Source: Octopus sinensis (lineage: Eukaryota). Taken from it: DNA of 64,000 bases. This document shows positions 2,340 to 64,000 of this stretch, piece after piece (the stretch's first letter is position 1; each line of letters opens with the position of its first letter). The notes beneath the pieces are model-generated. The model searched no databases. It had not been told where the DNA came from and saw nothing but the letters and a program-made list of their open reading frames with translations. The position numbers and the translations under genes are program-made. The stretch spans positions 99,200,001 to 99,264,000 of the forward strand of contig NC_042998.1 in assembly GCF_006345805.1 (NCBI RefSeq). The letters run 5' to 3'.

Positions 2340-3040
2340 CCTGGTTCCCAACATTGTTTATTTCAGAAGAGCAGGGTGACAAAAAACTCTCTCGATTTTT
2401 ACGAGCACTAGTGGATCGGTCAGCGGTGAAAAAGAAACGATTAGGTTCGCAAGTGCCAGGTGCAAATGTCGCTGTATCATTTCCTTAATAATAAAAAGAT
2501 TACTTGTGAAAAAGAACAAATAGCGTACAATGACCAACGTCCTAGCCGAATCTGTAGTGGTACCACCAGGAAACCTTGCCTGCCGGGCGAGAATGAGCGC
2601 CGAGTAAGAAAACACCACGATGTTGTTGCGAAGCCTCTCTATGTTCAATGTTTTGAAGCTGCACCGTAAACACTTGCATGTACATTTATATCCGTAACCT
2701 CAAGCTAAACTCGAAAGGCCTTCACTTCATAGGAGGAGGGTGGGGGGAAGAAGAAGAAGAAGAAGAAGCAGACGACGACGACGACGACGATGATTCTGAA
2801 ATATATGTAGTATAGGTATTATATGGACCACAAGCAACAGGTGTGTCGCGATTTCTGCAATCAGACCCGGCGACCCAGTTAATTCTTCGATGGAAATTGA
2901 TTTTCTGGTGGATGCCAAATTCATTGCTGTTGTAGCAGAGCTTCTTGAAAAATAGTTGTTAAAATGTCCCCACTTACTGCAAGTTTTCTCTCCTTCTTTT
3001 TTGCAATGGTATCATCACCAATCTCCAACTAAATTTTTTC
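2340..3040 (-). mobile_element. Degraded Ty3/Gypsy gag and protease lead-in
   Basis: Minus strand gives LASTRKSISIEEL (gag helix, ~2880-2920), WWYHYRFG*DVGHC (CWYHxRFG motif, 2525-2568) and PNRFFFTADRST (protease lead-in, ~2405-2445). Confidence 0.65.
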
Positions 3041-3044
3041 TCTA

Positions 3045-4200
3045 TGACTCTTTCCTTGACAAATATGGAATCTACCCTCTCAACGAATGGTCAAATCTGT
3101 CTTGGATTTTCCTGCTCCAACTTCGTCGAGGAAATTGAGATTCTTGGTCTGATTAACTTATATCACTACTTCATTTCTCACTGTTCAGAATTTCATCAAT
3201 CCCTCGCATATATCTTCCGGGGTAGAACATTAGAGAACCAGCTCATCTTTCTTGATGATGCACAATCTGCTGCTTGTCTTAAAATTAAGAATATCTTGGA
3301 TGAAGCTTCTCTGACTATTCATCCCAACTTCGACGCATCAGTGTTAGACGATACGCAGGATGGCGGTGTGCGCGGCGTTCTCTCTCAATGCGTTAATGTT
3401 GTTCGGCATCGCGTTCTCTCTTCTCAAAGTGTCTCAAGCAGGTTGAAACAAAAATTCAATACTTTTGGGAGAGAACTGTTAGAAGTCTATTTTAGTATTA
3501 AATATGTTCCGTGCATGCTGGATGGTCCTGTCTTTAACATTTACACCGACCTCAAGTTTCTCGCTTACGCTTTCAAATTCAAACCTGATCGCCACTAGCC
3601 TAGTGAAATATGCCACTTCAATATACTGTAGAATACCATTAATATTCGTCACACTAAAGGTTCGGACAATTCTGCGACCGATACACTTTTTCGCGTCCAA
3701 TCCAACTTAATGCGCTGCACACTCGCGCGTTTATAGATCTGCAACAGCTTGCTACTGATCAAGAAAGGGACGAACGACTCTTCAAGCTTCAATATGCTTC
3801 TCTGGAATTTCAGTTTGTTCATTTCTTTCTCCAAGGAACGTTTGCTGTAAATTTTCTACTGGTCATGAACGCCCTTATGTGCCACACAAAAGCATAGATA
3901 TCATGTTGATTTTTGGTTCTGCATAATTTATCGCACTTTGACCGACTCTATACAGAAATTGATATCAGCCCGTTTGTATAGATTGGTCTTAACAAGGACA
4001 AGAAGCCATGTCGCATGTCAAAATACCCAGCTTCGGCTACACGTTAAAACACGTTTCGGCGCAATCTCAACTCCTGATACTCGTTTTCAGCAGTTGTACA
4101 TCGACAGCGTGATACTATTACCTCCTTCACAGAATTGTATATATACTAATTTGTGTTGACCGATTCTCCTTGTGGCCAGAAGTCATTCCTCTGTCGTCTC
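3045..4200 (+). mobile_element. Degraded Ty3/Gypsy pol: RT thumb/connection, RNase H, integrase N-terminus
   Basis: ORF 3044-3598 has LGLINLYHYFI, FDAS, TFGRELLEVY and IYTDLKFL. It continues IRHTKGSDNSATDTL, then RFQQLYIDSVILLPPSQ...VDRFSLWPEVIPL. Stops and frameshifts present. Confidence 0.9.
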
Positions 4201-22980: not shown

Positions 22981-24729
22981 CATCATCATCATCATCATCA
23001 TTGTTTAACGTCCGTTTTCTATGCTGGCATGGGTTGGACGGTTCAACTGGGGTCTGAGAAGCCAGGAGGCTGCACCAGGCCCCAATCTGATCTGGCAGTG
23101 TTTCTACAGCTGGGTGCCCTTCCCAATACCAACCACTCCGTGAGTGTAGTGGGTGCTTTTTACGTGTCACTGGCACAGGGGACAGAGGAGCTAGTATCAA
23201 CCATGATCAGATGGTGCATTTTACATGCCACTGGCACAGAAGCCAGTCAAAGTAGCACTGGCATTGGCCACATTTGGATGGTACTTTTTACATGCTACCG
23301 GCATGGGGGTCACAACTACAATTTCCATTTGATTTCATTTTGATATTGATGTTGATGTTGATGTACTTGACTCAATAGGTCTCCTCAAGCACGGCATGTC
23401 ACCCTACGATCCAAGGTACTTTTGAGTGGGCTGGTTATATGACACTGGTGTAGGTTACAGCTGCAAACTCACTTTGTTTGCCGGGTCTTCTCAATCACAG
23501 CATAACTCCAGAGGTCTCGGTCTTTTGTCATTGCCTTTGTGAGGTCCAACGTTTGAAGGTCATGCTTCACCACCTCATCCCATGTCTTCCGGGGTCTCCC
23601 TCTACCTCAGATTCCTTCCAATTGTTTGGGAGTGGCACTTCTTCACACATTTCTCCTCGTCCATCCACAGTACATGATCATACCAACTTAAACATCTCTC
23701 TTGCATGCTACATCCGATGCTTCTTATGCTTAACATTTCTCTCAGGGTGCTTACACTCTGTTGTGTGTGCACACTGATGTTACACATAGAGTGGATCATG
23801 CTAACTTCATTTCTTTCAAGCTTACAGCAGTCACAGCCTATGTTTCACTGCCGTGAAGCATGGCATTTTGCACACATGCATCATACAATCTACCTTTCAC
23901 TTTGAGTGAGAGACCCTTTGTCACCAGTAGGAGTAGAAGCTTTCTAAACTTTGCCCAGGCTATTCTTATTCTAGTGGTGACACTCTCTGAGCATCCACCT
24001 CCACTACTAACTTGGTCACCTAGGTAGCAAAAACTATCAACTACTTCTAGTTTCTCCCCCTGGCATGTGGTGGAGTCTGTTTTCTGAGCATCTGTTGTGT
24101 TTATTGCCCCTGTTTATCTGCTGCACGCAAAAGCTATCTTCCTGGTTAATCTTCCTTTGATGTTGCTGCACCTCTTATGTGTCCATAGCTTACACTGGGT
24201 TCATCGTATGGAGTTTCTACCTACACCTTTGCAACAGATTGAGCAGGGCCACCTACCTGAAGGGGTATGTGATGTATTTGCCTTCCTACTTACTAGAACT
24301 TTGGTCTTTAAAATCTTGACTCTAAGGCCCTTCAATTCTAAACCTTGCTTCCACACTTGAAGTTTCTTCTCTAGTTCTGGTAGTAGTTCTGCTATGAGGG
24401 CCAGGTCATCAGCATAAAGGGGCTCCCAGGGGCAACCTGTCTTGAATTCCTCTGTTATTGCCTGGAGGACTATGATGTATAAGAGGGGGCTGAGGGCTGA
24501 TCCTTGGTGGACCCCAACGTCTACCCAGAATTCTTCACTATAACTCATTTCCAATCCTAAACCTACTAACGGCATCTCTGTATAGGGCTTGTACAGCTCT
24601 TATTAACTATTTGTCAATCCCCAGTTTCTGCATTGCCCACCAGATAAGGGATTGGGGTACCCTATCAAAGGTTTTCTCTAAGTTCACAAAAGCCAAATAT
24701 AGGGGTTTATCTTTGACTAGGTATTTCTC
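22981..24729 (-). mobile_element. 5'-truncated RTE-clade LINE (RT core to (GAT)n tail), inactivated
   Basis: Minus strand reads EKYLVKDKPLYLAFVNLEKTFDR, GVHQGSALSPLLY, LYADDLALI, a Cys/His-rich insert and the ORF end ..AVIEKTRQTK* (~23470). Then 3' UTR and (GAT)n tail. Frameshifts and stops present. Confidence 0.93.
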
Positions 24730-25515: not shown

Positions 25516-25866
25516 AAACAATTGCAGCGTGGAAGGTGTTTATAAGCCATTTAAGAAACACACAAAACCGTTAGATTCTCTTCAACATTTAAATTTAATT
25601 TGTCAAAATATTTTCGTCACTTTGAGACTGTGACCTGTTCACTGACAAAGTTTCGAGATGCAGCAGGAAGCTTTGTCAGTGAACAAGTCACGGTTTCAAA
25701 GTGACGAAAATATTTTGACAAATTAAATTTAAATGTTGAAGAGAATCTAACGGTTTTGTGTATTTCTTAAATGGCTTATACACACCTTCCACGCTGCAAT
25801 TGTTTTCGTTCCAGCACACGATCTCAGATCAAGTCACTCGCTATGCAAGTACATCTCCGTAATTAG
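25516..25866. mobile_element. Near-perfect ~290-bp palindrome with a one-sided 60-bp extension (Penelope-like inverted pseudo-LTR or MITE)
   Basis: 25516-~25650 is the reverse complement of ~25671-25805 with few mismatches. Flanked by TA-rich sequence. Confidence 0.75.
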
Positions 25867-36489: not shown

Positions 36490-38578
36490 ATCCGAACGTG
36501 GCCGTAGTCAGTACCGCTTGTGGTACCAGTGCCGGTGGCACAAAAGAATCCATCCGAACGTGGCCGTAGTCAGTACCGCATCACTCGCCATCGTGCTGTG
36601 GGCACATAACAAACACCATCCGGTCGTGGCCGTTCGCCAGCCTCATCTAGCACCTGTGTCGGTGGCACATAAAAAGTAGTCAGTACCGCTTGTGGTACCA
36701 GTGCCGGTGGCACACAAGAATCCATCCGAACATGGCCGTAGTCAGTACCGCATCACTGGCCATCGTGCTGTGGGCACATAACAAACACCATCCGGTCGTG
36801 GCCGTTCGCCAGCCTCATCTAGCACCTGTGTCGGTGGCACATAAAAACACCTTCTGAAGACCCGGCAAGACTAGTCAGGCCATAAACCATGGCCCCTACC
36901 TGGGACGTAGTCAGTCCACCTGTGCATACCTTCCTCCTTGTGATACTTGTGAAGGCCTGTTGAGGCAAGTGAAAATCAAATCAAATCAAATCAAAATAGA
37001 TGAACATCAATGGAATTTGTATCTTTGTGGTACCAGTGCCGGTGGCACACAAGAGAAAACCATCCGAAAGTGGCCGTAGCCAGTACCGCATCGACTGGCC
37101 TCTGTGCTGTGGGCACATGACAAACACATCCGATCGTGGCCGTTCGCCAGCCTCATCTAGCACCTGTGTCGGTGGCACATAAAAACACCATCCGAAGACC
37201 CGGCAAGACTAGTCAGGCCATAACCCATGGCCCCTACCTGGGACGTAGTCAGTCCACCTGTGCATACCTTCCTTCTTGTGACACTTGTGAAGACCTGTTG
37301 AGGCAAGTGAAAATCAAATCAAAACAAATCAAAATAGATGAACATCAATGGAATCTGTATCTTTGTGGTACCAGTGCCGGTGGCACACACTTTGTGGTAC
37401 CAGTGCCGGTGGCACACAAGAGAACCATCCGAACGTGGCCGTAGCCAGTTCCGCATCGACCGGCCTCCGTGCTGTGGGCACATAACAAACACCATCCGAT
37501 CATGGCCGTTCGCCAGCCTCATCTGGCACCTGTGTCGGTGGCACATAAAAACACCTTCCAAAGACCCGGCAAGACTAGTCAGTCCACCTGTGCATACCTT
37601 CCTTCTTGTGACACTTGTGAAGACCGGTTGAGGCAAGTGAAAATCAAATCAAATCAAAATAGACAAATATATGAACATCAATGGAATTTGTATCTTGTGG
37701 TACCAGTGCCTGTGGCACACAAGAAATCCATCAGTGCCGTAGTCAGTGCGGTGGGCACATGACAAACACCATCCGATCGTGGCCGTTCGCCAGCCTCATC
37801 TAGCACCTGTGTCGGTGGCACATAAAAACACCATCCGAAGACCCGGCAAGACTAGTCAGGCCATAACCCATGGCCCCTACCTGGGACGTAATCAGTCCAC
37901 CTGTGCATACCTTCCTTCTTGTGACACTTGTGAAGACCTGTTGAGACAAGTGAAAATCAAAACAAATCAAAATAGATGAACATCAATGGAATTTGTATCT
38001 TTGTGGCACGTGGCACATAAGAAAACCATCCGAACCTGGCCGTAGCCAGTACCGCATCGACTGGCCTCCGTGCTGTGGGCACGTAACAAGCACCATCCGA
38101 TCGTGGCCGTTTGCCAGCCTCATCTGGCACCTGTGTCGGTGGCACATAAAAACACCATCCGAGCGTGGCCGTCTGCCAGCCTCGTCTGGCACCTGTGTCG
38201 GTGGCACATAAAAACACCATCCGAGCGTGGCCGTCTGCCAGCCTCGTCTGGCACCTGTGTCGGTGGCACATAAAAAAACACCATCCGAGCGTGGCCGTCT
38301 GCCAGCCTCGTCTGGCACCTGTGTTGGTGGCACATAAAAAACACCATCCGAGCGTGGCCGTTTGCTAGCCTCGTCTGGCACCTGTGTCGGTGGCACATAA
38401 AATCACCCACTACACTCTCGGAGTGGTTGGCGTTAGGAAGGGCATCCAGCTGTAGAAACACTGCCAGATCTGACTGGACTGGTGCAGCTTTCGGGCTCCC
38501 CAGACCCCAGTTGAACCGTCCAACCCATGCTAGCATGGAAAGCGGACGTTAAATGATGATGATGATGATGATGATGAT
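36490..38578 (+). repeat. Higher-order tandem array derived from an RTE LINE 3' UTR, ending in the LINE tail and (GAT)n
   Basis: Recurring GTGYCGGTGGCACAYAAAAA-CACCATCCG motif. Four ~310-340-bp units (AAAATCAAA marker at ~36972, 37310, 37640, 37953) and five 62-64-bp units (38124, 38186, 38248, 38312, 38375). Standard tail at 38400-38578. Confidence 0.92.
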
Positions 38579-38587
38579 ATGTATATA

Positions 38588-42639: not shown

Positions 42640-43198
42640 GGTGCCAGTGCCACATAAAAAGTACCTGTGGCAGTGGTCTATAAACGCACCCATGCCACCC
42701 AGCACACTCTGTTAGGTGGTTGACACATAAAAAGCACCCACTACACTCTCAGAGTGGTTGGCATTGGGAAAGGTATCCAGCTGTAGAAACCTTGCCAGAT
42801 CAGATTGGAGCCTGGTGCAGCCTACTGGCTTGCCAGTCCTCAGTCAAATTGTCCAACCCATGCCAGCATGGAAAACAGACGTTAAACAATGATGATGAAG
42901 ATGATGTATATATCATCATCATCATCATCATCGTTTAACATCCGCTTTCCATGCTAGCATGGGTTGGACGATTTTGACTGAGTGCTGGCGAACCAGAAGG
43001 CTGTACCAGGCTCCAATCTTGATTTGGCAGAGTTTCTGCAGCTTGATGCCCTTCCTAACGCCAACCACTCCGAGAGTGTAGTGGGTGCTTTTTACGTGCC
43101 ACCGGCACGGGGGCCAGTCAGGCGGTACTGGCAACAACCTCGCTCGAATCCTTTTACACATGTCCCCAGCACGGTGCCAGTAAGGCGACTTTGGTAAC
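42640..43198. mobile_element. Two RTE LINE 3' ends tail-to-tail (+ 42640-42905; - 42912-43198)
   Basis: GACGTTAAACAATGATGAT is followed within a few bases by CATCATCGTTTAACATCCGCTTTCCATGCTAGCATGGGTTGG. Confidence 0.85.
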
Positions 43199-56812: not shown

Positions 56813-57096
56813 TGGAACAAAAACAGAATAGGGGGCATTAAATGTTCGGACAGATAGATAACACAAAGGCAGACAAGAGAAACAACAATTAGAAGGATAG
56901 GCAAAAAAAGACGGGTCATTCTTGGCTTTCTTTCATCAGTCAAGTACCAGAAGTCACGAACATTTTGGACAGTTACACTTGAGATGGTTTGATCTGGTTG
57001 TTCCAAAAAAAGTCTAAGCTAAGAGCATTAGACCCCTTTGTAAGAAAGAAAGCTAGCAAAAGTGTACAGCAACAAAGACAAAAAAACAATATATAT

Positions 57097-57630
57097 ATAA
57101 TTGAAAGAATTTGGAGTCAACTAGAAGGAGTAGAGTTGGACATTTATTTTCAATCACTACAATTGTTTCCATGTAACGTAGTTCTTCAGGCATGCAGGTA
57201 CTTGATTATGCGACTGTTTCCCTGCATTATGAGATCTATTTTCCTCAGACAGTATGTAAATATTGTCTCCATAAGTTCAAATTCTCGGTTTCAAGGGCAT
57301 CCTCTGTCTCTCATGGCCTGGAGTTAGTAGTGGCCAGTTTGCCAGTGGACTCTCTGCCACAACACATCCTTTGATAAACTCAGTGGCTGCTACTAACTCC
57401 AGGCCATGACAGACAGTGAAGATGCCTTAGAAATTGAGAATTTGAACTTACGAAGACAATAATTACATATCACTTGAGGAAACACAACTAGGTCTCGTAA
57501 TGCAGGTAAATGGTTGCATTATCAAGTACTTACAAGCCTGGAGAACTACGTTGCATGGAAGCAATTGTAATTATTGAAAATAAATGTCCAACTGTACTCC
57601 TTCTTGCTGGCTCCAAATTCTTTCAGTTAT
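57097..57630. mobile_element. ~530-bp foldback element with a hammerhead-like core in each arm
   Basis: Arms of ~240 bp are reverse complements around a ~45-nt loop. CTGAGGA/GAAACAATTGTA motifs are present. Confidence 0.75.
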
Positions 57631-57741
57631 CTATTCACACATGACAGAAGCCCATATGCAAATGTGGAAGTATGTACTACCAGATAGTACAAGGTGAAAT
57701 CTGAAGGTGGACAAGCTTTATACTGTACTCTACTATGTTCT

Positions 57742-57825
57742 ATGCTATGATGCTATGATGGACCGTGAAGTCTGGCGTAGCATGGTAAATTCCATTGTCT
57801 CGACCACGGTCGAACAATGATGATG
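57742..57825 (+). mobile_element. 84-bp LINE 3'-end insertion with 10-bp TSD
   Basis: Reads AMMDREVWRSMVNSIVSTTVEQ* then (TGA)n. Flanked by ACTATGTTCT at 57732-57741 and 57826-57835. Confidence 0.85.
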
Positions 57826-60800
57826 ACTATGTTCTTAAAAGACTACACCATATATATATATAACTGAAGAGATGGCAGCGTGGATTTCCACCTCAGCATC
57901 TGAAACTCGGAGTTTTATCATGGCTACCGAATAATTGTCACATATTACATTTACAGATAAATTCCTCTATTTACATAATATCGAGGCCTCTTTCTTTCTT
58001 TTGTTGTCTTACCATTTTATCAATATATATATAAGCACCCATGCTGGTGCCACATAAAAGCACCTGGTACACTTTGGAGTGGTTTGAAAGGATATCCAGC
58101 TGTACAAACCATACCAAAATAAACTGGAATCTGGGCAGCTGAGAAGCTGCCCAGTTCTTGTTAAACCATCCAATCCATGCCAACATGGAAAGCAGACATT
58201 AAATGATGATGTGTGTGATGTGAACCATCTCCTTGCCTTGACATTCTGTGATAATTCTAAGTGAGTGTCACCATCATACAAGCAGTGCCTTTCTTTTCCA
58301 GGCTGCCATGAAAATATGTCTGGTCATGAGGAAATATTACCTTATTTGAAAACAAGTAAGGGTTGGTGATAGAAGGGACATCTAGCTGTTGAAAATCTAC
58401 CTCAACAAATTCCCTCCAACCCATGCAAACCTGGAAAAAGTGGGTGTTAAAACAGTGATGAGGAAATGCCAAATTTTCCCCTGGAATGCTGAAATTTTTT
58501 TCTCTTGGTTAAGAATTGTAGATTTAGGATTTGATGTGCTTTCTAACAAAAACACAGAGAGCTACAAATAAGATTAGTGGTTATTGATGAGGTTGAGATC
58601 TTATTGATAAATCATTGATGTGTTTTCTTTGTCTTTATTAACTTGAATGCTCATAAAGTGATTGAGTGAGTAATGGGGGAAGGGAAGAGATTTATAAGTG
58701 AGAGAAAGAGACAGGGAGATAGAAAGAGAGTGAGGAAGGGAAGAAGTGAGTGATGTAAGGAAATAAGAAGTGGGTGTAGTAAGGAGCTAGTGGGTGTGGA
58801 TTAAAAGAGAGAAATTTGAGATGCTGCTGTGGGGTAGTAACAGGTCATCTACCACTTGGTTTGTTAAATAAACATTGAAGTCTTGACATTATTTTTTTGC
58901 ATCTAAGTAAAGGAAATAGATTTTCTTTTTTTTATTTTGTTTTGTTGAATCCATCAAGTTAAGAGGTTGTTCTTTTTGTTGTTTACTCCCACCCACCTCT
59001 ATCAACCCTACTCCAAGTAGACCTATGATCAAAGACATTCCACCTATGAATACTCTTGTTTACACACCAAGTAAATCTAGGGATACATTAACTAACATGT
59101 AATCCTTTTTTAAAGAAGATAGATTCGATTTGTGAGAGATTTGACTGCTATTTCTAGCTGGCTTAATAACCACTCTGAAGCTCTTTCATCAGTTTGTGAG
59201 ATTAAGAGGCTGAGTGGTTGAATGGGAAGTTTGATATCTCAATGGATAAGGGAATATGACTTAACAGTCGCTATTTTTACTGTTTTCAAAAGAAAACATA
59301 GATAAATAATGGTTATATAGAATCCATGTGAAGGCCTTTCACGTTGTGTTAATATTGTAAAGAATTTGTATAGTTTTACTATTTTCTATTATAACTTAGT
59401 GGAAGGTATCCAAACTAGAAGGACAACTTCAAGCCAAGGGAGATGCACTGTAACAGCTACTCTGACTCATAGGACTCACACTTGCAGATAGCCATCTCTA
59501 TCCCAATAATGGTGAGTGAGGATATGGTCCAGGGGTCAAAAACACCAGAGGTCTCCTATGCTCCTGGCTTGACCATAAAGCTATCAGAAAGTGACCAATA
59601 TAGTTTGCTCTTCTCAGCCTAACGAGCAGTGGATCCTAGACTGGTAGTTGATCACAGTAAGTTGCTACTGGAGAAGGTGTCACAGCATGTCACATCCTAG
59701 TAGATGGGGGTCCTACCACCACAGAATGGGAAAATCATCATGCTGTCAGGTTTTTTACTGTCCCTTCAGTCTAGCCTTGCTGGCTCAAACTAGGAACAGA
59801 AGCCTGTGGCCTCTAGGCCATGCTTTATGATTTCGTTAAGAGCAACATGGAGCAGAAGGCAGCCAGCACTATAACCCCTCACTAGCTGTAAGTGCCTGTA
59901 AAAAGTATCAACCCTGGCATTAACTCAGATAAGAAAAGACCTCAGGTGGGTCATGACTCTGTTCATCTCCAAGAGAGCTTGAAATGGAAACAAATGGATA
60001 AGAAGAGTTTTTAACCAGCCACAACCACACCTCAAATAGCCCTCATCGGCAGTGGTACTGATTCTGCATGTATCTGAAGTCCCAGACCTTCCCTTTTGAA
60101 GATGAAAACATTCATTCATTCATTCAATGTTACACCCAGTAATTAGTAAGGTATGTTTTATATAGTGTGGCTGTTGTACTTCAGAAGACAAATGTTCTAC
60201 TATAGCCTCAAATTGAGTAAAGCTGTAGTGAAATTTAGCAAACAGAAACTGTACAGAACCCCCCCCCCCCCCACACACACACACACACACACAAGTGTGT
60301 GCATATGTGTGTGTGTTAACAAAAGTATCTTGTGATATTTTATGTAAGTTGCTTACATGTAAATTGCTTCCCTTTAGATCTTCTTGACTCTGAATTTCAT
60401 CCACCTCTGAATTAGATCAAATAAGTTCCAAGGTATCAGTCTATATAATAGGCAGTGGACTGGCAGAATCATTAGAGGTTGTGGTATGTAGTTAAGATCC
60501 TTTGTATTCCAAATTCAAATTCTGCTAAGGCCAAATTTGCCTTTCATTCCTTCTTGCTCAACAAAGTATAAGGCCTTTAATATTCCTATAAAGCATCCTA
60601 GATGAGGCTAGAAATATGATAGACGACCAAGAGTAAGACATATTTTCAGTTTAGTGACTGAATCCAGTAAAAATAAATAAGAATTGCAGAGATTAGTTCC
60701 ATGGGATAATGAGTAATGGGTAGCAAATTTACAACAATATTTTCATTTTCAGGCATGGCTATTTATGTTTGTTTACATTACTAATGCACTTAGGAATGGA

Positions 60801-63170: not shown

Positions 63171-64000
63171 GAAATACTATTTAACCTATAAAATATATAT
63201 ATCGTTATCATCATCATCATCGTTTAATGTCCATTTTTTATGCTGGCATGGATTGGACGGTTTGACTGAGGTCTGGAGAGCCAGCAGCTATATATATATA
63301 TATAGTCTGAATTTTATAGTGTTAATTATCCATCACAGCTAGTCTTATCAATCATTTTTGTGTGGAGTTATATAATGGAGTGTTAGGCAACAAACCAGTT
63401 ATATGGTATACACTCGTCAGAGACAGCCACTATATAATTTCATGCAAAACTGACTGGTAAGACAAGCTGTGATGGATAATTAACACTATAAAAATCAGAC
63501 AATATACCCACTCAACTAACAGTTATACGAGTGCATCTTCTCCCTGACTTATGGTCTCTAAGACGATTCAAACAGTATATATATTAAGTCATATGTAAAA
63601 AAACATAAGCTTCTTTTTGAAGCATTGAAATGTATTGTAGAACAAGTACAAATATATATTTTTCAATCCATAAATACTGATAGAACAGCATTTACACGTT
63701 GAGAAATATATCTTTCTACTTGTTATATATATGTACATATATATTTTCCTTCTTTTATTTTATATGTATATTTTTTTGCATTACAACTCACCACGTGGGG
63801 ATAATCAAAATTCTCCTCCTCCCTTTTTGTTATATACATATATATATATCATTATCATCATTCAATGTATATGTTCCATACTGGCATTGATTGGCCAATC
63901 TAACAAGATCTGACTAGAATGAGGACTGCATTGGTCTCCAGAGTCTGCTTTGGCAAGGTTCCTATGGCTGGATGCTTTTCCTAATGCCAAACACTTTGCA

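What the first reader, a model, noticed from the sequence alone, without database searches (positions are those of the whole stretch)
57097..57630. 530-bp foldback whose two arms together reconstruct a minimal hammerhead ribozyme
Seen: the left arm (minus strand) keeps CTGAGGA (57248-57242) and GAAAC-AATT-GTA-GTGAT (57169-57153). The right arm keeps ATCAC-TTGAGGA (57469-57480) and GAAGCAATTGTA (57558-57569). The consensus ATCAC-CTGAGGA-[~80 nt]-GAAAC-AATT-GTA-GTGAT has a perfect 5-bp stem I, the catalytic core and a palindromic stem III loop. Known: Penelope-like elements carry minimal type I hammerheads with palindromic stem III in their pseudo-LTRs and often form inverted structures. Inference: a non-autonomous ribozyme-bearing foldback family with an unusually long stem II, lying in a transcribed intron.
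Basis: partly seen in the sequence, partly recalled or inferred. Interest (0 to 1): 0.72.

Follow-up and report, generated by a model that had tools for sequence, protein, structure and literature searches.

The report
Two-armed Penelope relic, long-arm hammerhead
This foldback is two back-to-back, decayed copies of the tail end of a protein-coding Penelope-type jumping gene; the family carries a hammerhead RNA motif with an unusually long second arm that is predicted to self-cut only in pairs, while the two copies here are mutated and likely dead.

Summary
The foldback and all four quoted motifs are real. It is not a non-autonomous foldback family. It is one insertion of the 3' end of an old Hydra-clade Penelope-like retrotransposon: copies elsewhere run upstream into GIY-YIG and RT coding sequence, and 42 of 42 two-armed copies of this type have different junctions. 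The right arm extends to about 57851, interrupted by a younger 85-bp LINE end. The hammerhead need not be pieced together from the arms: it is the family consensus (142 copies), with a 77-nt helix II (26 nt or less in published Hydra elements), two compensatory changes in a sister family, and a predicted double-hammerhead dimer. Both window copies carry lesions, and a read-through RNA would pair them with each other. Copies end at two fixed sites about 135 nt apart, one per arm in 42 of 44 classifiable pairs, and 45 of 52 run across the cut site, so the templates were mostly uncut. Cleavage is untested, and the intron claim could not be checked. This scan already noted long-armed Hydra hammerheads and one-of-each two-armed insertions on other DNA.

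The parts
57089..57099 (.). (TA)n microsatellite at the left end, likely the target site
   Evidence: sequence; 24 of 46 copies ending at this family position have (TA)4 or more at the end
57097..57336 (-). Left arm: inverted, 5'-truncated copy of the element's 3' UTR, ending at the upstream fixed end site S (consensus position about 505-510), no tail
   Evidence: 90% identical to family consensus over 238 columns
57153..57253 (-). Left hammerhead copy: core intact; 5' strand of helix I mutated and 5 nt deleted from the base of helix II; predicted cut position 57158/57157
   Evidence: no hammerhead fold as monomer or dimer
57335..57336 (.). Junction of the two arms, 2-nt microhomology (CA)
57337..57383 (+). 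Loop of the foldback: extra 5' part of the right arm with no partner in the left arm
57335..57851 (+). Right arm: direct, 5'-truncated copy from consensus position 213 to the downstream fixed end site L (about 643), with the tail
   Evidence: 85% identical to consensus over 404 columns
57469..57574 (+). Right hammerhead copy: C3 changed to U, A15.1 changed to G, 3' strand of helix I mutated; 77-nt helix II region 57481-57557
   Evidence: no hammerhead fold
57630..57851 (+). Tail of about 135 family bases between end sites S and L; in a sister copy it is followed by the start of the RT reading frame
57742..57826 (+). Nested young 3' fragment of a LINE (RTE-like by recalled C-terminal pattern), 9-bp target duplication at 57733-57741 and 57827-57835
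   Evidence: 41 matches, the best other copies 97-100% identical; upstream reading frames in L254-L256
57850..57862 (.). (TA)n microsatellite at the right end
   Evidence: 67 of 118 copies ending at site L have (TA)4 or more

Best explanation
The foldback is a decayed, 5'-truncated, two-armed insertion of the 3' end of a protein-coding Hydra-clade Penelope-like retrotransposon, and the family's hammerhead motif with a 77-nt helix II likely self-cleaves only weakly and as a dimer, while both copies here are predicted to be inactive. Shown: the family link to RT and GIY-YIG coding sequence, the consensus hammerhead, two fixed 3' end sites, one of each per two-armed insertion, (TA)n flanks. Inferred: the RT-endonuclease nicked both strands of a (TA)n repeat; each nick primed cDNA on uncut element RNA, one at site L and one at site S about 135 nt upstream; both cDNAs stopped early and were joined head to head by microhomology; the copy then decayed by 10-15% and took a LINE insertion. 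The long helix II is inferred to be a folded, tolerated extension that leaves the core intact.
For: ORF link: L079, L096, L074, L155 and L032 continue upstream into endonuclease sequence; L079 and L074 align over 1301 columns from endonuclease to tail; L096 holds RT, linker, endonuclease, UTR and tail, plus an inverted tail-less copy at its 5' end. Sister copy L189 is pLTR-ORF-UTR, unit 3911 nt. Ends: 108 of 224 hits end at 640-644 and 40 of 224 at 500-519; 5' ends are scattered. 66 of 197 loci are head-to-head: 42 L+S, 2 L+L, 0 S+S, 22 with an arm ending elsewhere; 42 of 42 junctions differ; in 14 of 42 the S arm reaches further upstream than the L arm. Paired arms are 85% alike against 80% for random copies (23 pairs). 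Hammerhead: all 11 core positions are consensus and better kept than base-matched neighbours (0.938 vs 0.895, p = 0.003); such a motif arose in 10 of 20000 simulated sequences, 0 of 20000 with self-complementary helix III. Sister family B changes N7, swaps C-G for U-A and G-C for A-U in helix II, and keeps a self-complementary helix III hexamer. The lowest-energy dimer of consensus A and of young family C copy L195 is the double hammerhead. 45 of 52 tail-selected copies span the cut site; 1 of 52 starts at it.
Against: No cleavage data. Rfam hammerhead models hit neither the window nor four other loci. RNAalifold predicted no pairs on 59 decayed copies. The covariation rests on two lineage events, and several proposed helix II pairs are often broken (columns 17-87, 28-75, 29-74, 33-68). 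The base of helix II is an A.G mismatch, not G10.1-C11.1. The monomer minimum of consensus A lacks helix III, and the dimer minimum of consensus B is not a double hammerhead. No intact ORF was found for this family, and Pfam does not recognise the RT or endonuclease. The window's S arm lies inside its L arm, as in 24 of 42 pairs, which snap-back copying also explains.
Confidence: 0.8

Rival explanations
1. Same element, but the inverted arm arose by self-priming: one cDNA begun at site L folded back at its end, copied itself, and joined the target at site S.
For: Self-priming is proposed for head-to-head Penelope repeats in PMC3846280 (passages). 24 of 42 L+S pairs, the window included, have the S arm nested in the L arm and 4 start at the same place; site S has a TA-like sequence that could anneal to the target.
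Against: In 14 of 42 pairs the S arm reaches further upstream than the L arm, and in 4 of these the arms barely overlap or do not overlap. A Poseidon protein cuts and extends both strands and starts at two internal sites that bound the tail (PMC11167929).
Confidence: 0.25
2. The motif descends from a hammerhead but no longer cleaves in this family; the long arm and mismatched base have turned it into a structural or protein-binding signal.
For: Copies read through the cut site; non-canonical helix II base; consensus B does not fold as a double hammerhead; hammerhead cleavage is dispensable for insertion in vitro in PMC11167929.
Against: All core bases are kept in families A, B, C and D while N7 and the helices vary; mismatches at the helix II base are common in published Hydra hammerheads, and an axolotl motif with one cleaves as a dimer (PMC7229834 passage).
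Confidence: 0.25
3. A non-autonomous foldback (MITE- or retrozyme-like) family that moves as a 530-bp unit.
For: Five other foldback loci rank high in the first genome search; a third of sampled loci are two-armed.
Against: All 42 junctions differ, arm lengths vary freely, longer copies carry RT and endonuclease sequence; no tandem monomer arrays of this unit were seen in the loci fetched (one search shows only a few dimers).
Confidence: 0.04
4. The motif is chance, or a decayed RT coding stretch (one frame of the consensus reads like an RT catalytic motif by eye).
For: Stretches of 70-100 open codons occur in several copies.
Against: No Pfam or database match; the real RT lies 2 kb upstream and stops after the endonuclease; chance rate 10 of 20000 or lower; unrelated families show the same architecture.
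Confidence: 0.02

Closest known systems
Hydra-clade Penelope-like elements, including Hydra-1_Obim (Craig et al. 2021, PMC8557442; section 11, passages, supplement parts 1-2 and search hits read)
   Same: C-terminal GIY-YIG endonuclease, RWK, DKT, CxCX5C, CxxC and CxH motifs, (TA)n insertions, 3' type I hammerhead, inverted 5'-truncated copy, optional tail.
   Different: Helix II region 77 nt against at most 26 nt in the 26 Hydra rows of File S2 (22 nt in Hydra-1_Obim); tail about 135 nt against 30-40 bp; unit about 3.9 kb in sister copy L189 against under 3 kb; 3' UTR near 1 kb with a cryptic TG/TA microsatellite.
Minimal and palindromic-helix-III hammerheads of metazoan PLEs (Cervera and de la Pena 2014, PMC4209133; parts 1-2 of 4 read)
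   Same: Type I, 5-bp helix I, small palindromic helix III predicted to need a dimer, location in the pLTR.
   Different: Their long helix II is 6-8 bp with a conserved G10.1-C11.1 pair; here about 18-21 predicted pairs in an irregular 77-nt arm with an A.G mismatch at its base.
Poseidon element PAc of Anolis (Frangieh et al. 2024, PMC11167929; parts 1-2 of 4 read)
   Same: Two internal start sites bounding a tail, AT-rich targets, uncut RNA as main template.
   Different: Other clade; its hammerhead overlaps the ORF start, whereas here it lies about 260 nt or more before the RT frame in L189; one-of-each pairing of the two sites in inverted insertions was not in the parts read.
Metazoan non-LTR retrozymes (PMC7229834 passages; bioRxiv 10.64898/2026.07.22.740005 part 1 of 5)
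   Same: Type I hammerhead in a dispersed animal repeat related to PLE pLTRs.
   Different: Retrozymes are non-coding tandem monomers of 170-400 nt; this is a truncated end of a coding element.

Membership tests
EN+ Penelope-like element | Single ORF with RT and GIY-YIG endonuclease upstream of the repeat | tested here: met
   L096 (same family) has RT and endonuclease remnants, tblastn E to 6e-33 against intact relatives L194/L197; broken by stops and frameshifts
EN+ Penelope-like element | pLTR formed by partial tandem; inverted 5'-truncated copy; optional tail | tested here: met
   L189 partial tandem (sister family); 66 of 197 loci head-to-head; tail longer than described
Hydra clade | RWK and DKT motifs | tested here: met
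   Seen in sister copy L189 and in L194; no copy of the finding's own family reaches this far upstream
Hydra clade | CxCX5C linker; CxxC and CxH around the conserved E and N | tested here: met
   L096 and L079 translations
Hydra clade | Insertion into (TA)n | tested here: met
   24 of 46 and 67 of 118 ends; both window ends
Hydra clade | Placement in the RT phylogeny; absence of the CCHH motif | not tested
Type I hammerhead | Core CUGANGA, GAAA, UH with helices I and III (family consensus) | tested here: met
   72 of 142 copies keep the whole core
Type I hammerhead | Core and helices intact in the window copies | tested here: not met
   Right arm C3 and A15.1 changed, helix I broken; left arm helix I and base of helix II broken
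Type I hammerhead | Closed helix II with G10.1-C11.1 pair | tested here: inconclusive
   Arm folds as a hairpin (z -2.5 family A, -3.8 family B) with two compensatory changes, but base is A.G and RNAalifold found nothing; family C has G-C
Type I hammerhead | Match to Rfam hammerhead models | tested here: not met
   No hit in 29 matches at E up to 10 or 59 matches at E up to 1
Type I hammerhead | Self-cleavage after UH | not testable with these tools
   Needs an assay
MITE or non-autonomous foldback family | Copies share both ends and the centre | tested here: not met
   42 of 42 junctions differ
Non-LTR retrozyme | Non-coding tandem monomers, each with a hammerhead | tested here: not met
   Coding upstream sequence; no arrays in loci fetched

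The most novel reading that the evidence does not exclude
In these elements the hammerhead works mainly as an RNA pairing handle: two uncut RNAs join through the palindromic helix III, the long helix II holds cleavage down or docks the protein, and a dimeric RT-endonuclease primes one RNA at site L and the other at site S, writing the one-of-each two-armed insertions seen across this genome.
Probability: 0.12. Interest if true: 0.72.

Novelty: new variant of a known kind. Interest (0 to 1): 0.36.

Why it matters
The locus itself is a dead repeat. The family matters in two ways. First, hammerheads with 42-92 nt between the core halves occur in several unrelated repeats of this genome and are missed by Rfam, so ribozyme counts in such genomes are likely too low; young family C (copies 96-99% identical, long open frames) gives a direct substrate for testing whether such arms allow cleavage. 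Second, the strict pairing of two fixed end sites, 14 cases that simple snap-back does not explain, and read-through of the cut site are a genomic record bearing on the open question of how Penelope elements build inverted repeats and what their ribozyme is for.

Tried and rejected
Rfam scans: no hammerhead hit. Reading the repeat as coding: no Pfam or database match. Protein database search with the RT fragment: none of 176 candidates scored; PDB sequence search with L194: no match; Pfam does not name these RT or endonuclease domains (only a weak GIY-YIG hit, E 0.003, on a neighbouring element). Expression: no RNA holder listed on record; contigs of four runs guessed to be RNA did not cover the foldback body at 95% likeness; neither says anything for or against transcription or cleavage. 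Host gene: no exon found. Subfamily split by diagnostic bases failed (groups of 1 and 3) and is not used; a tree step crashed and was dropped. RNAalifold gave no structure. Literature: searches for hammerhead + octopus + Penelope, hammerhead + cephalopod, long or extended stem II + retrotransposon (0 papers) and hammerhead + Penelope-like + helix II (listing only) showed no description of long-armed Hydra hammerheads; only open-access full text was searched, and of the PMC8557442 supplement only parts 1-2 of 59 and search hits were read.

Full report
Observation. The inverted repeat is real: 78.5% over 553 columns, fold energy -334 kcal/mol, z = -31. The four motifs sit at the quoted coordinates. 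The spacer between the core halves is 77 nt on the right and 72 nt on the left.

It is a dispersed repeat, mostly single-armed. The own-genome search gave 1440 candidates, 40 scored, 105 matches. I gathered copies with four kinds of query (100 of the 150 places were fetched came with the call). Against a 644-nt consensus there were 240 hits in 162 loci, mean identity 86%. 5' ends are scattered; 3' ends pile up at two places, 108 of 224 at 640-644 (site L) and 40 of 224 at 500-519 (site S), about half of each followed by (TA)4 or more. This is the pattern of a 5'-truncated retroelement. In the window the left arm ends at S; the right arm runs to L at about 57851, interrupted by an 85-bp LINE end with a 9-bp target duplication whose best other copies are 97-100% identical.

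It is the end of a coding element. Upstream of a cryptic TG/TA microsatellite, five copies (L079, L096, L074, L155, L032) carry GIY-YIG endonuclease sequence. L096 holds RT, linker, endonuclease, UTR and tail over 2.9 kb, with an inverted tail-less copy at its 5' end; it matches intact relatives L194 and L197 by tblastn. L189, of a sister family 76% identical in this region, is a partial tandem: hammerhead and tail, then the reading frame, then UTR and second hammerhead 3911 nt later. The motifs that Craig et al. give for the Hydra clade (PMC8557442 section 11) are present: CxCX5C, CxxC and CxH in the finding's family, RWK and DKT in the sister copy, (TA)n targets in both. No tree was built. 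The host is likely an octopus; this is inferred from the resemblance to Hydra-1_Obim, recalled repeats and earlier notes, not tested.

The foldback is one insertion event, not a family. 66 of 197 distinct loci are head-to-head pairs: 42 have one arm ending at S and one at L, 2 are L+L, none S+S, 22 have an arm ending elsewhere; all 42 junctions differ. In the set not chosen by a foldback query the figure was 21 of 24. Arms of a pair are more alike than random copies (85% vs 80%, 23 pairs). Inverted 5'-truncated copies with an optional tail are described for these elements, and a Poseidon protein cuts and extends both strands and starts at two internal sites that bound the tail (PMC11167929). 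I infer two primings, one per site, joined at a 2-nt microhomology in the window. Snap-back self-priming (PMC3846280) fits the window and 24 to 28 of 42 pairs, but not the 14 in which the S arm reaches further upstream.

The hammerhead is the family consensus. Of 173 copies spanning it, 142 remained after collapsing those 94% or more identical; every core base is the majority base and 72 of 142 keep the whole core. Core positions are better kept than base-matched, non-CpG neighbours (0.938 vs 0.895, p = 0.003), and simulated sequences gave such a motif in 10 of 20000 cases, 0 of 20000 with a self-complementary helix III. Sister family B (35 rows) changes the free position N7, replaces C-G by U-A and G-C by A-U in helix II, and turns CAAUUG into CAUGUG, still self-complementary. 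On 59 gap-free copies (40 drawn at random from 113 of family A, all 19 of family B) 84% of cells pair and 0 of 500 shuffles reach the covariation score, but this reflects two lineage events, and four proposed pairs are often broken; RNAalifold found no structure. The lowest-energy dimer of consensus A is the double hammerhead (-52.8 vs -42.6 kcal/mol for two monomers), as for family C copy L195 (-59.8 vs -51.0); for consensus B it is not. The base of helix II is an A.G mismatch; mismatches there are common in published Hydra motifs.

What is unusual. The 26 Hydra rows of File S2 have at most 26 nt between the core halves; two spike-moss elements flagged as deviating have about 50. Here it is 77 nt, and unrelated repeats in the fetched loci show 42, 49-51, 55-60, 66 and 92 nt with varied palindromic hexamers; five inserts tested fold better than shuffles (z -2.1 to -4.4). 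Rfam misses them. Family C is young and has long open frames.

The window copies are likely dead. The right copy has C3 and A15.1 changed and helix I broken; the left has helix I and the base of helix II broken; neither folds as a hammerhead alone or paired, and a read-through RNA would be about 80% paired as one hairpin. The two motifs lie on opposite strands, so they cannot make up for each other.

The cut is not recorded in the genome. Of 52 copies chosen by the tail alone (60 loci, less 6 duplicates and 2 self-hits), 45 extend well past the predicted cut site and 1 starts at it. Templates were therefore mostly uncut (or re-joined), as reported for PAc. This fits weak, conditional cleavage, and also a motif that no longer cuts.

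Transcription and intron. Not established: no host exon found and the read data were uninformative.

Verdict. A new variant of a known kind: an ordinary decayed Hydra-clade Penelope insertion whose family has a long-armed hammerhead and a long tail. Earlier notes of this scan, seen after my own family analysis, describe the same two features on other DNA; none matched this sequence. They are unchecked notes and add no weight. Interest 0.36.

Noticed in passing
window 57860-57918 (+), element to about 58033: A second hammerhead motif of another family (31-nt helix II region, helix III CTCGGAG) starts in the same (TA)n repeat; the same type occurs in L191 and L142. Core looks intact; Rfam did not report it.
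   Followed up: partly
window 59939-60075 (-): U4 snRNA-like match, 37 bits (gathering 46), E 9e-6, full model length; likely a pseudogene.
   Followed up: no
window 25516-25805, 42721-43101, 63299-63506: Three further foldbacks (94%, 85%, 76%) of other repeats.
   Followed up: no
L045, L051, L055, L056, L058 and similar loci: One copy of the finding's family, with its flanks, has been re-amplified recently inside a larger composite repeat of more than 2.5 kb; such copies were collapsed before counting.
   Followed up: partly
L194, L196, L197, L198 linker regions: Long asparagine-rich inserts between RT and endonuclease in intact frames of 700-1000 aa, like those described in rotifer Penelopes (PMC3846280 passage).
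   Followed up: no
L197 and L199, downstream of the ORF: No canonical hammerhead was found by my scan within about 2.4 kb after the stop codon of this related family.
   Followed up: no
L163, L093, L168, L113, L114, L157: A subgroup of family A changes the upper helix II so that a nearer, alternative hairpin is favoured: the tip of the arm looks plastic.
   Followed up: no
window 2963-3598 (+) and 24201-24599 (-): Fragments of other retroelements: RNase H-like and RT domains.
   Followed up: no
window 36490-38580: Tandem array of a repeat with units of several hundred bases.
   Followed up: no
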